From Rhynchobatus australiae (Eukaryota), in the NCBI GenBank assembly GCA_034780895.1, contig JAUZTB010000098.1, forward strand, positions 89,426,175 to 89,490,174: a DNA stretch of 64,000 bases, written 5' to 3'. This document shows positions 8,165 through 64,000 of this stretch, piece by piece. Below the pieces are notes generated by a model. It was not told the DNA's origin and did no database searches. It was given only the letters and a program-made list of their open reading frames with translations. Numbering within the stretch: the stretch's first letter is position 1; each line of letters opens with the position of its first letter. The translations under genes were made by a program, and so were the position numbers.

Positions 8165-8338
8165 AATAAAAAAATACTTGATGTTGAAAATCTGAAATAA
8201 AAACAGAAAATGCTCGAAGCACTCAGCAGTCAGGCAGCATTTGTGGAAAGAGAAGTAGAGTTAATGTTTCACATTGAAGACTTTAATATGAAACTATGAC
8301 AGTGGTTCTCTTTTGCACAGATGCTGCCTGACCTGCTA
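8165..8338. mobile_element. Penelope-derived short repeat, inverted pair
   Basis: aatctgaaataaaaacagaaaatgct...actcagcagtcaggcagcatttgtgg followed by its reverse complement cacagatgctgcctgacctgct. Confidence 0.75.
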
Positions 8339-10234: not shown

Positions 10235-10505
10235 AGATACTACAGACACTGGAAATCTGAAATAAATGTGGGAAAAATTGGAAATGGTCAACAGGTCAGG
10301 TTCCCTCAGTTCTGAGAAAGGGTCACTGACCCAAGATGTTGTTGGTTTCTCCTTCTACAGATGCTGCTTGACTAGCTGAGTTTTTCCAGCATTCTCTGTT
10401 TTTGTTTCAGATTCCAGCATCTGCAGTTTTATTTGTTTTCCAGGTTAGGCATCTTGTCTGGAGAGAGAATCAGAGTTAATGCTTCAATCCATCTGAACTA
10501 GAAAA
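10235..10505. mobile_element. Penelope-derived short repeat: plus-strand copy nested within a minus-strand copy
   Basis: ctggaaatctgaaataaa...caggtcagg | cagttctgagaaagggtcactgaccc...cagatgctgcttgactagctgag...cagattccagcatctgcag | caggttaggcatct...gagttaatg. Confidence 0.75.
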
Positions 10506-12904: not shown

Positions 12905-13040
12905 AAAGAAAACTGCAGATGCAGGAAATCTAAAACGAACACGAAGATGAAGGATCTTCCACCTGAAATGTTGTCTCTGCTTTTCTGCCCCCACATTTAG
13001 ACTGACCTGCTGAGTATTTCTACCATTTTCTGTTTCAGAG
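12905..13040. mobile_element. Penelope-derived short repeat with inverted 5' piece
   Basis: aactgcagatgcaggaaatct (minus-sense tail) joined to gatgaagg...cctgaaatgtt...ctgacctgctgagtatttctaccattttctgttt (plus sense). Confidence 0.7.
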
Positions 13041-32822: not shown

Positions 32823-32899
32823 TTTGAACTGCTAATATCTAAATAAATGCACTGCAGTTTTAAGTCAATGGGGCAGGCTAAATGAACTAACAGTCCTAA

Positions 32900-33025
32900 A
32901 CATTGTCCCGATGCAGTCTTGACCCAAAACATCGACTATCCCTTTGCCTCTACAAATTCTGCTGAACCCGCTGGGTTCCTCCAGCAGATTGTTCTTGCTC
33001 CAGATTCCAGCATCTTGTGTCTCTT
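32900..33025 (+). mobile_element. Penelope-derived short repeat with decayed hammerhead-like motif
   Basis: gtcccgatgcagtcttgacccaaaacatcgac...ccgctgggttcctccagcag...cagattccagcatc. Confidence 0.75.
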
Positions 33026-33240: not shown

Positions 33241-33430
33241 TGGAGACACAAGAGACTGCAGATGCTGGAATCTGGACCAACAAACAAGATGCTGGAGNNN
33301 NNNNNNNNNNNNNNNNNNNNNNNNNNNNNNNNNNNNNNNNNNNNNNNNNNNNNNNNNNNNNNNNNNNNNNNNNNNNNCTCCACAGATGCTGCCTGACCCA
33401 CTGAGTTCCTCCAGCACCTTGTTTGTTGCT
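33241..33430. mobile_element. Penelope-derived short repeat, inverted pair flanking an assembly gap
   Basis: caacaaacaagatgctggag [80 N] ctccacagatgctgcctgacccactgagttcctccagcaccttgtttgttg; the arms are near reverse complements. Confidence 0.85.
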
Positions 33431-37562: not shown

Positions 37563-37920
37563 TAGAACATAGAACATGCTTCGTACAGCACAGGAACAGC
37601 CCTTCGGCCCACGATGTGGGTGCCGAACACAATGCTGAATTAATCTCTTCTGCCTGCACATGATCCACATCCCTCCATTCCCTGCATATTCATGTGCCTC
37701 TCAGTCTCTTAAACGCCACTATCGTATCTGCCTCCACCGCCACCCCTGGCAGCCCGTTCCAGGCACCCACCACTCTCTGTGTAAAAACCTTGCCCCACAC
37801 ATCCCCTTTAAACTTTCTCCCTCTCGCTTTAAATGCATGTCCTCTAGTAGTTGAAAGTTCCACCCTGAGAGAAAAAATTCTGACTGCCCACCCTATCTAT
37901 GCCTCTCATAATTTTAAAAA
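37563..37920 (-). mobile_element. HER_LINE/CR1 3' fragment
   Basis: tagaacatagaac...gtacagcacaggaacagcccttcggcccacgatg terminus and cccctggcagcccgttccaggcacccaccactctctgtgtaaaa. Confidence 0.9.
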
Positions 37921-38294
37921 CCTATTTACTAGCCCCAGATCTCCATATCTCCTCATGTAATTCTGAGTGACCTTAGTCAAATAGCAATTTCCATTTTAAA
38001 TGATTAATTGGATCTTAATGAAGGAGAATCATTTCCTCAACTGCACCTTCGCTGTGTAAAATCACTGCTGTCCGTGAGATATTAAATCAACTTACCTGGA
38101 TTCATTTCTGGTGCAGGTGAATTTGTGGGCTTGTAAAAATCAGGTCTATCACAGAAACTTCCTTGTGCTTACTCCCAATCCTCTCGTCCCACTAATCACC
38201 ACTAAGGAAATGCCTGAGAACAGGAATCTTCCTGCAGGGAGCAGATCATATCAGTGGGTGGAAATCAAGAACTGATAGCCATTTGATGCATTCT

Positions 38295-38625
38295 GTGCAG
38301 AAAAACACACTGCTGGAGGAACTCAGTAGGTCGAGCAGCATCTGTGGAAGGAAAAGAAGTGCCAACCTTTCGGGTTGAAACCCTGCATCAGGACTGAGAT
38401 TGGAGAGGTGACATGGCCAGTATAAAGAGGAGAAGGGGAGTGGTAAGACAGGAGTCCGAGGTGATTAGTGAACTGAGGAGGCAGTGAATGATAGATGGAG
38501 GCAGATAAAGAGAGAGAAATAAAAATTGAGAGGCAGACGAAGTGGGGGGAGGGGTGGTGTGAGGGGAGAGTGAAGGTTGGAGACAGTTGCTGGAGGAAGA
38601 TAAGCAGGAACACAAAGAGCGACCA
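38295..38625 (-). mobile_element. Penelope-like element terminal region with hammerhead-like motif
   Basis: Minus strand: long pyrimidine-rich tract, then agtcCTGATGCAgggtttcaacccGAAAggttggc...ccacagatgctgctcgacctactgagttcctccagca. Confidence 0.8.
38361..38395 (-). ncRNA. Minimal type I hammerhead-ribozyme-like motif (variant core, activity doubtful)
   Basis: GUC-CUGAUG(C)A-GGGUU/UC/AACCC-GAAA-GGUU-GGC: both core boxes in order, perfect helix II, 3-bp helix I. Confidence 0.6.
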
Positions 38626-38684
38626 ATGCTGGTTTCTATTTATTAAAAGCATCCAAAACTTTAGAATTACTGATTAGGTTGCAG

Positions 38685-52621: not shown

Positions 52622-52749
52622 CTCAATGTAGTCCTTGGCATGACCCCAATCTCTCTTGGCATCCAGATTGCCCAAACTAAAACAATCCAGCTGTCTGAGG
52701 TGAATCTTAGCCACTGACCGACTAATTTTCCGAGTTACGAAATTAGCCC
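52622..52749 (-). CDS. GMDS: GDP-mannose 4,6-dehydratase, internal coding exon (equivalent to human exon 7)
   Basis: Translates (G)[42 protein letters not shown], matching the GMDS/Gmd segment with the RDWGHAKDY motif. Flanked by tttgtttcAG acceptor (phase 1) and GAG|GTaggc donor (phase 0); 128 bp. Confidence 0.96.
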
Positions 52750-58254: not shown

Positions 58255-59148
58255 ACTGAATTGTTTTATTATTGTCACTTGTACTGACGTACAGTGAAAA
58301 ACTTGCCTTGCATACCATTCATACAGATCAATTCATTACACAGTGCATTGAGGTAGCACAAGATAAAACAATACAGAATGCAGAGTAAAGAGTCACAATT
58401 ACAAAGAAAGTGCAGTGCAGATAGACAATGAGGTGCAAGGTCATAATGAGGTAGATTGTGAAGTCAAGCGTCCATCTTATCGTAGTAGACAACCATTCAA
58501 TAGTCTCATAACAGCAGGATAGAAGCTATCCTTGAGCCTGGTGGTACATGCGTTCAGGCTTTTGTCTCTTCTGCCTGATGGGATAGGGGAGAAGAGAGAA
58601 TGTCCCAGGTGGGTGGGATCTTTGATTATGCTGGCTGCTTCAGCAAGGCAGCGAGAAGTATAGACAGAGTCCATGGAGGGGAGGCTGGTTTCCATGATGT
58701 GTTAAGCTGTGTCTACAAGGCTCTGCATTTTCTTGTGGTCCCAGGCAGAGCAGTTGCCATACCAAGCCATGATGCATCCAAATATGATGCTTTCTATGAT
58801 GCATTGATAAAAGTTGGTGAGTGTCAAAGGGGATATGGCAAATTTCTTTAGCTTCCTGAGGAAGTAGAGGCACTGGTGAGCTTTCTTGGCTGTGGCATCT
58901 ATGTGGTTAGACAAGGACAGACTATTGGTGATGTTCAACCCTAGCAAGTTGAAGCTCTCAACCCTCTCAACCTCAGCATCATTGATGTAGACAGGTGCAC
59001 GTGTACCGCCCCCCTTCCTGAAGTCAATGACCAGTTCTTTTGTTTTGCTGACATTGAGGGAAAGGTTGTTGTCATGACACCACGTCACTAAGCTCCCTAT
59101 CTCTTTCCTATACTCCGACTCCTCATTATCTGAGATATGGCCCACTTT
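58255..59148 (-). mobile_element. Rex1/Babar LINE, 5'-truncated (~0.9 kb)
   Basis: ORF 58702-59232: WCHDNNLSLNVSKTKELVIDFRK...KKAHQCLYFLRKLKK...FYQCIIESI; frameshifted ORF 58477-58695 ASIIKDPTHLGHSLFSPIPSGRR; 3' UTR ends gtgacaataataaaac. Confidence 0.95.
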
Positions 59149-59999: not shown

Positions 60000-60245
60000 G
60001 TACGGAAATCTGAAAAATGAAATAAGAACAGAAAGTGCTAGAAACACTCTGCTGGTCGGGCAGCATGCTGAGGGAAATCAGCGGGTGATGCTGAGCGGCC
60101 ACCTTAACTCTTCCAGCAGGTTGTTTGTTGCTCTAGATTCCAGCATCTGCAGTCCCTTGTGTCTTGAATATTTCAGATCTGTTTCTCTTTCCACAGATGC
60201 TGCCTGACCTGCTGAGTGTTTCCAGCATTTTCTGTGTTTTTTTTA
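60000..60245. mobile_element. Penelope-derived short repeats: inverted pair with a third copy nested
   Basis: acagaaagtgctagaaacactctgctggtcgggcagcat ... agattccagcatctgcagtc ... ccacagatgctgcctgacctgctgagtgtttccagcattttctgt. Confidence 0.8.
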
Positions 60246-60863: not shown

Positions 60864-61010
60864 GAGTCTGATGAAAGCTGATTAAACCGAAATGTTAACA
60901 CTGTTTCCCTCTCTGCAGATGCTTCTGACTTGCTTATTATTATCATTATTATTTTCTGTTTTCTCATACATTTTCTTTTCAGATTTCCAGCACTTAACAA
61001 TCTTCAGCTT
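60864..61010 (+). mobile_element. Penelope-derived short repeat with hammerhead core boxes
   Basis: gagtCTGATGAaagctgattaaaccGAAAtgttaac...ctgcagatgcttctgacttgct...ttcagatttccagca. Confidence 0.7.
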
Positions 61011-63497: not shown

Positions 63498-64000
63498 ATT
63501 GTTATTGGTTTATTATTGTCACTTGTACTGAGGTTCAGTGAAAAGCTTGCCTTGCATATTGTTCACACAGATCAATTCATTGCACAGTGCATTGGGGTAG
63601 TACAGGGTAAAAACAACAACTGAAGTGTCACAGCTACAGGGAACTGCAGTGCAGGTGCAATAGGTGCAAGGTCACAACAAGGTAGATTGTGAGGTCAAGA
63701 GCCCATCTCATTGTATAAGGGAACTGTTCAATAGTCTTATCACAGTGGGATAGATGCTGCCTTGAGCCTGATGTTATGTGCCCTCAGGCTCATGTATCTT
63801 CTGTCTGATGGGAGAGCAGAGAAGAGAGAATGACCCAGGTGGGTGGGTTCTTTGATTATGCTGGCTGCTTCACCAAGGCAGTAAGAGGTATAGACATGGA
63901 GGGGAGGCTGGTTTCTGTGATATGCTGAGCTGTGTCCACAACTCTGCAGTTTCTTGCAGTCCCAGGCAGAGCAGTTGCCAAAGCAAGCCATGATGCATCC
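63498..64000 (-). mobile_element. Rex1/Babar LINE 3' portion (continues beyond window)
   Basis: ORF 63740-63991 AASIIKEPTHLGHSLFSALPSDRRY; collinear with and similar to 58255-58780. Confidence 0.93.

What the first reader, a model, noticed from the sequence alone, without database searches (positions are those of the whole stretch)
38361..38395. Hammerhead-ribozyme-like motif in a Penelope-derived repeat, sense to the GMDS pre-mRNA
Seen: the minus strand reads AGUC-CUGAUG-C-A-GGGUU-UC-AACCC-GAAA-GGUU-GGC, with the two hammerhead core boxes separated by a perfect hairpin and a short closing helix (GUC/GGC). Known: Penelope-like elements carry minimal type I hammerheads with a vestigial palindromic helix III thought to act as dimers, and intronic hammerheads exist in amniote genes. 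Inference: this is the best-preserved copy in the window and would be transcribed within the GMDS intron. It deviates from canonical (C after CUGAUG; GAAAGGUU rather than GAAACGUC), so this copy may be dead even if the family consensus is active.
Basis: partly seen in the sequence, partly recalled or inferred. Interest (0 to 1): 0.72.

Follow-up and report, generated by a model that had tools for sequence, protein, structure and literature searches.

The report
Decayed Penelope hammerhead, altered-core lineage
This is a real but damaged, likely inactive copy of the tiny self-cutting RNA motif that Penelope-type jumping genes are known to carry, lying in an intron of a likely shark or ray gene; the one twist is that thousands of sister copies share a change at a normally fixed core letter, and whether that version cuts is untested.

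Summary
The motif is there (minus strand 38,394-38,361), sense to GMDS, 14 kb into a ~209-kb intron. It sits in a ~350-bp 3' end fragment of a Penelope-like element (RT, CxxC linker, GIY-YIG; likely Neptune type). G15.2 is copy-specific (0 of 70 sister copies): it destroys the ACGU palindrome needed for dimer helix III, and no other copy in the intron passes a relaxed hammerhead descriptor, so this copy is likely dead. C at position 9 (normally A) is not decay but a lineage trait: 70 of 70 copies of subfamily A1, 23 of 30 of A2, and 4,730 of 12,220 exact genome matches. Inserted copies decay neutrally, yet the A1 and A2 majorities differ at 1 of 32 motif positions against 32 of 135 upstream (p=0.006), so the motif likely stayed constrained after the change. 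Nothing supports domestication by GMDS. The scan reported the same class before, in this and other shark/ray-like genomes, including other core changes. Ordinary locus; modestly interesting, testable core variant.

The parts
38361..38394 (-). Minimal type I hammerhead-like motif: helix I 5' arm 38,394-38,392; C3-G8 38,391-38,386; C9 38,385; extra A 38,384; helix II 38,383-38,380 / 38,375-38,372 with loop 38,379-38,376; G12-A15.1 38,371-38,368; 15.2/16.2 38,367/38,366; U16.1 38,365; H17 38,364; helix I 3' arm 38,363-38,361
   Evidence: Sequence; position-by-position comparison with 70 sister copies
38385..38385 (-). C in place of core A9: lineage-wide trait of subfamilies A1 and A2
   Evidence: 70 of 70 A1 and 23 of 30 A2 copies picked by flanks only; 4,730 of 12,220 exact 16-mer matches
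38367..38367 (-). G15.2 (family C): copy-specific lesion; 15.1-16.1 reads AGGU, not the self-complementary ACGU
   Evidence: 0 of 70 A1 and 0 of 30 A2 copies have G here; palindrome test
38284..38649 (-). 5'-truncated 3' end (pseudo-LTR) fragment of a Penelope-like element, subfamily A1, with an internal deletion of about 70 bp; no coding part left; ends approximate
   Evidence: BLAST to sister loci, alignment; no tblastn hit of three PLE proteins in the window
38339..38360 (-). Pyrimidine tract, CAG (AG at 38,343-38,342) and ATG (38,341-38,339) in the element tail; looks like a 3' splice site, untested
   Evidence: Sequence; shared by the subfamily majorities
52622..52749 (-). GMDS exon upstream of the host intron (context)
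   Evidence: PF16363 E=7e-13; AG/GT borders; flanking exons in the genome

Best explanation
The motif is a decayed minimal hammerhead in a truncated 3' end fragment of a Penelope-like retrotransposon that lies in a GMDS intron, and this copy likely does not cut. Shown: the family links to RT plus GIY-YIG on the same strand; this copy has lost the C15.2-G16.2 palindrome; no second copy passing the descriptor lies in the readable intron. Inferred: the fragment arose by reverse transcription from the element's tail with early 5' truncation, before organisms A and B split, and is transcribed only passively with the GMDS pre-mRNA. At family level, A9C was carried by source elements through two subfamilies; the rest of the motif was likely still constrained, most likely because the element's protein or RNA processing needs this sequence while efficient cleavage is dispensable.
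For: Sister copy L028 has a GIY-YIG frame ending ~710 nt upstream of the motif, same strand (PF01541 E=1.4e-5, over cut-off). L084, L093 and L076 carry RT, linker, endonuclease and a C9 motif in one orientation; the RT piece's relatives carry PF00078/PF01541 and the best named ones are from rays and sharks. The window copy differs from the A1 majority at 4 of 32 positions (loop G>A, 15.2 C>G, H17 C>U, 1.2 A>G). Its predicted lowest-energy folds are not the hammerhead (P(helix II) 0.16-0.63, P(helix I) 0.0). Only 6 of 70 A1 copies keep core, helix I, helix II and a 15.2/16.2 pair; core and non-core positions decay equally (45/630 vs 72/1050, p=0.84). In the intron region (210,621 bases, 13,754 N) 27 element-end hits, 1 passes the descriptor. 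Both junctions are bridged by organism B contigs (18 differences in 511 nt). Published: metazoan minimal hammerheads showed no monomer cleavage and low dimer cleavage (PMC4209133); an anole PLE hammerhead cut only with protein and was not needed for insertion in vitro (PMC11167929).
Against: No cleavage assay and no RNA data. The state of the motif itself in organism B could not be resolved, so locus-level conservation is untested. 6.5% of the intron region is N. Fold energies say little: intact C9 and A9 copies also often fold otherwise. The constraint after A9C (1/32 vs 32/135) is equally compatible with an active variant ribozyme.
Confidence: 0.85

Rival explanations
1. At family level the C9 motif is an active core variant: the extra A that minimal hammerheads carry after position 9 would slide into A9's place opposite G12, looping the C out, and the dimer would cut with help from the element's protein. 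The window copy stays dead.
For: A1 and A2 majorities differ at 1 of 32 unconstrained motif positions (a loop letter) versus 32 of 135 upstream, p=0.006; p=0.03 if one CpG site is counted. The extra A is kept in 69 of 70 A1 copies. Natural core variants with low but real activity are published (PMC3088659, section 8).
Against: A9 makes a three-hydrogen-bond sheared pair with the general base G12 (PMC2553840, passages) and is listed as core (PMC3088659). C9 creates a competing CCUG/CAGG hairpin: median probability 0.21 in 20 C9 copies versus 0.00 in 20 A9 copies. Helix I shortens from 5 bp (family B) to 4 (A2) to 3 (A1) in the majorities. The tail 21-68 nt downstream is as conserved (3 of 48), so the constraint is not specific to the ribozyme.
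Confidence: 0.25
2. This copy was co-opted by the host and cuts or otherwise regulates the GMDS pre-mRNA, like the conserved amniote intronic hammerheads.
For: Sense orientation; CUGA, G8, G12 and AAA intact, whereas only 19 of 70 A1 copies keep these core letters; insertion shared with organism B.
Against: Palindrome lost and no partner; 4 of 32 differences from the majority is ordinary decay; a query picked by eye for intact boxes will look intact; thousands of copies make intronic sense hits expected.
Confidence: 0.03
3. The resemblance to a hammerhead is fortuitous and the repeat is not Penelope-derived.
For: No Rfam hammerhead match; no covariation above shuffles in 20 hand-picked copies; Pfam did not recognise five RT/endonuclease fragments.
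Against: RT plus GIY-YIG linkage; match to the published minimal consensus except at position 9; between families 2.1-1.1 changes C-G to U-A and 10.1-11.1 G-C to G-U or A-U; 0 chance matches in 100 random sequences.
Confidence: 0.02

Closest known systems
Minimal hammerheads (min-HHR) in pseudo-LTRs of metazoan Penelope-like elements (Cervera and De la Pena 2014, PMC4209133; read main text parts 1-2 of 4 and supplement file 2 part 2 of 3)
   Same: Type I order, no helix III beyond a palindromic 15.2-16.2, extra nucleotide before 10.1, G10.1-C11.1, short helix I, position at the element's 3' end, mostly single truncated copies.
   Different: Position 9 is C in two subfamilies; every row I saw in their Figure S3 has A there (their descriptor required it) and the part I read lists no shark or ray. 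This copy lacks the palindrome.
Neptune-type EN+ Penelope-like elements (Craig et al. 2021, PMC8557442; passages)
   Same: RT, then a CX2-5CxxC linker, then a C-terminal GIY-YIG; hammerhead near the 3' end.
   Different: Clade assigned from the linker only (Nematis also has it); no RT tree was built. No coding part remains at this locus.
Poseidon element PAc of Anolis (Frangieh et al. 2024, PMC11167929; passages and second part of main text)
   Same: Hammerhead near the element end, with a short tail beyond it.
   Different: PAc has a canonical tested core and its ORF starts inside the motif; activity here is untested.
Conserved intronic hammerheads of amniotes (RECK and others; via review PMC6155905, passages)
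   Same: Type I, intronic.
   Different: Those are conserved across species; this is one of thousands of decaying repeat copies with a broken helix III.

Membership tests
EN+ Penelope-like element | RT and C-terminal GIY-YIG on the strand of the hammerhead-bearing 3' end | tested here: met
   At family level in L084, L093, L076; absent from the window fragment itself
EN+ Penelope-like element | CX2-5CxxC linker (Neptune/Nematis) | tested here: met
   Read directly in translations of L073, L078, L083, L084, L088
EN+ Penelope-like element | RT phylogeny places it in a named clade | not tested
   No reference set at hand
Metazoan minimal type I hammerhead | C3 U4 G5 A6 N7 G8 and G12 A13 A14 A15.1, U16.1, H17 | tested here: met
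   Window copy and subfamily majorities
Metazoan minimal type I hammerhead | A9 | tested here: not met
   C in this copy, 70 of 70 A1, 23 of 30 A2
Metazoan minimal type I hammerhead | Palindromic 15.2-16.2 for dimer helix III | tested here: not met
   GG in this copy; met in the family majority (CG)
Metazoan minimal type I hammerhead | Helix I and helix II can pair | tested here: met
   3 bp with one G-U, and 4 bp; not favoured in predicted folds
Metazoan minimal type I hammerhead | Covariation in helices I and II | tested here: inconclusive
   None above shuffles in 20 copies; two pair changes between families, one partly fixed by the search pattern
Metazoan minimal type I hammerhead | Self-cleavage as dimer or with protein | not testable with these tools
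   Needs an assay
Domesticated intronic hammerhead | Orthologous motif conserved above flanks | tested here: inconclusive
   Insertion shared with organism B, motif letters unresolved
Non-LTR retrozyme | Tandem units each with a hammerhead | tested here: not met
   Single copy; no self-match within 1.5 kb, no partner in the intron

The most novel reading that the evidence does not exclude
A whole Penelope lineage amplified in two waves to thousands of copies with a hammerhead that lost the invariant A9 but kept the rest of the motif, because the neighbouring extra A takes over A9's role: a natural, active new core variant that searches requiring CUGANGA miss, and a ready natural test of whether PLE hammerheads need to cut.
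Probability: 0.25. Interest if true: 0.55.

Novelty: new variant of a known kind. Interest (0 to 1): 0.3.

Why it matters
The locus itself matters little. The lineage-wide A9C change bears on an open question: what Penelope hammerheads are for. If natural C9 motifs do not cut, a successful element kept the sequence without the chemistry, which supports a non-catalytic role (in line with PMC11167929, where cleavage was not needed for insertion in vitro). If they do cut, the accepted core has a new natural exception and genome counts of minimal hammerheads are underestimates. A9 and C9 families in one genome give a matched comparison.

Tried and rejected
Rfam scans found no hammerhead family. 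No RNA holder listed, which says nothing on expression. Laying contigs at 95% likeness did not isolate the orthologous motif in organism B. Pfam missed five degraded RT/endonuclease fragments and the PDB sequence search gave only chance hits, E>0.7. Pair counting on 20 hand-picked copies showed no covariation above shuffles. A tail-only tree (121 rows, 62 columns) needed 4 changes of the A/C state with almost no supported branches, so a single origin of C9 is not shown. The reading frame behind the tail's CAG-ATG was found in 0 of 44 homologous proteins. Folding z-scores were not significant for this copy or two intact sisters. Literature searches for A9C, A9U/A9G, the C9 core string, shark and cartilaginous found no description; Lunse et al. 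on PLE hammerhead dimers, Nelson and Uhlenbeck 2008, and Tang and Breaker 1997 were not held, so a published A9 variant or measured A9C effect may exist there. Supplement file 1 of PMC4209133, bioRxiv supplements and the mutant tables of PMC9901934 were not seen.

Full report
Observation. In hammerhead numbering: helix I arm GUC, C3-G8 CUGAUG, C at 9, an extra A, helix II GGGU/ACCC around UUCA, G12-A15.1 GAAA, G15.2 G16.2, U16.1, U17, and GGC. The 'perfect hairpin' is 4 bp with a tetraloop. Rfam has no match. A relaxed descriptor matches only this site in the window and 158 kb beside it, and 0 times in 100 random 64-kb sequences.

Host gene. PF16363 exons lie on the minus strand of contig C98 on both sides. 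The exon in the window is 52,749-52,622; the next begins about 209 kb downstream. The motif is sense, 14.2 kb past the donor.

Origin. The motif is part of a dispersed repeat (40 of 40 scored candidates matched, 1,649 first-look candidates). The window fragment spans about 38,649-38,284 with a ~70-bp internal deletion and holds no coding sequence. Longer sister copies lead upstream into a GIY-YIG frame on the same strand (L028, PF01541 E=1.4e-5; two other fragments scored below cut-off). Of 30 loci picked by that endonuclease, 18 had a same-strand downstream motif with position 9 readable: 16 C, 1 A, 1 G (one of the 16 is the query locus); 11 had none and 1 was cut short. L084, L093 and L076 show RT, CxxC linker, endonuclease and C9 motif in order. 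The RT piece has 44 relatives among 148 candidates, the best named from rays and sharks, many with PF00078. By the linker this is likely a Neptune-type element (PMC8557442, passages), and the host is likely a cartilaginous fish.

C9 is a lineage trait. I picked copies by flanks only, leaving 32 motif positions free. Subfamily A1: 180 matches, first 70 analysed, C9 in 70. Subfamily A2: 110 matches, first 30 analysed, 23 C, 6 T, 1 A. Genome-wide, 4,730 of 12,220 exact matches to a 16-mer with position 9 free have C. Clustering 213 of 220 copies on the tail alone separates C9 groups (A1, A2) from A9 groups (B, C, D). A9 and C9 forms have equal length, so this is a substitution. A2 is more decayed than A1 (13.1% vs 7.0% non-CpG), suggesting two waves. 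One origin is plausible but not shown.

This copy. It differs from the A1 majority at 4 of 32 positions. The one that matters is C15.2 to G, seen in 0 of 70 A1 and 0 of 30 A2 copies; 15.1-16.1 is no longer self-complementary, and minimal hammerheads are thought to need that palindrome to form helix III as dimers (PMC4209133, parts 1-2 read: monomer inactive, dimer low). In the intron region (210,621 bases, 13,754 N) there are 27 element-end hits, 11 sense and 16 antisense, and only this one passes the descriptor. Predicted folds are not the hammerhead, though this is weak, as intact copies also misfold. Against a plain-decay reading: it keeps core letters that only 19 of 70 sisters keep, but it was chosen for that. 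Organism B contigs bridge both junctions, so the insertion predates that split; the motif's letters in B were not resolved.

Selection. Among inserted A1 copies core and non-core positions decay alike (45/630 vs 72/1050, p=0.84; A2 27/270 vs 67/450, p=0.07). Between subfamily majorities the motif is conserved: 2-6 differences in 34 versus 5-12 in the next 20 nt (tail differences are partly by construction). For A1 versus A2 (16 and 9 long copies), 1 of 32 free motif positions versus 32 of 135 upstream, p=0.006, or 0.03 counting one CpG site. The tail 21-68 nt downstream is as conserved (3 of 48). Covariation is thin: none above shuffles in 20 copies; between families 2.1-1.1 goes C-G to U-A, and in family D 10.1-11.1 is G-U in 17 and A-U in 7 of 27 (the D pattern fixed the helix I letters).

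Mechanism. Inferred: the element is copied from its tail and usually truncated, leaving short ends like this one. A9 pairs with G12 through three hydrogen bonds (PMC2553840, passages) and counts as core (PMC3088659, section 8 and passages); I found no measured A9C effect. C9 also opens a CCUG/CAGG hairpin over the CUGA box (median 0.21 in 20 C9 vs 0.00 in 20 A9 copies), and helix I shortens from 5 to 4 to 3 bp in B, A2, A1. I therefore think the C9 motif likely cuts poorly and is kept for another role; an anole PLE inserted normally with a dead hammerhead in vitro (PMC11167929), and Naiads thrive without canonical ones (PMC8557442). The rival is a register shift onto the extra A.

Novelty. PLE minimal hammerheads are known. 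Five searches found no A9C lineage or cartilaginous-fish account beyond one Chondrichthyes genome in a retrozyme survey (bioRxiv 10.64898/2026.07.22.740005, part 1 of 5 and passages); the key Lunse et al. paper was not available (title seen in PMC6765202's references). The scan has noted the same class three times in this genome and core changes in other shark-like genomes (unchecked). Verdict: real, likely inert copy; new variant of a known kind at family level; interest 0.3.

Noticed in passing
L052/L053 (G000:C1:2828233 and 2828309): Two A9 minimal hammerheads with ACGU palindromes in direct tandem 76 nt apart: a natural dimer-ready pair, retrozyme-like.
   Followed up: no
window 38,360-38,339 (-): The element tail looks like a 3' splice site (pyrimidine tract, CAG) followed by ATG; sense to GMDS here, so a possible cryptic acceptor. 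The frame behind it was not found in 44 homologous proteins.
   Followed up: partly
L009, L016, L017, L018, L019, L022, L027, L029: 8 of 30 sister loci have an inverted second element end within 1.5 kb, the known fold-back pattern of PLE insertions; the window copy has none.
   Followed up: no
window 32,892-32,995 (+), 10,302-10,399 (+), 12,946-13,033 (+), 8,202-8,337, 33,378-33,427 (+), 60,028-60,237, 60,868-60,934 (+): Further decayed element ends of several subfamilies; the one at 32,9xx is also C9 (A2 type).
   Followed up: partly
G000: 51,708 first-look candidates for the element's endonuclease: PLE remnants are very abundant in this genome.
   Followed up: no
P0001, P0002, P0008: Database proteins named as host genes in rays and skates match the PLE RT piece at 59-66% identity: mis-annotation or exonisation.
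   Followed up: no
window 37,583-37,925 (+) and 58,260-58,779 / 63,504-64,000: Other dispersed repeat families with several copies in the window; not examined.
   Followed up: no
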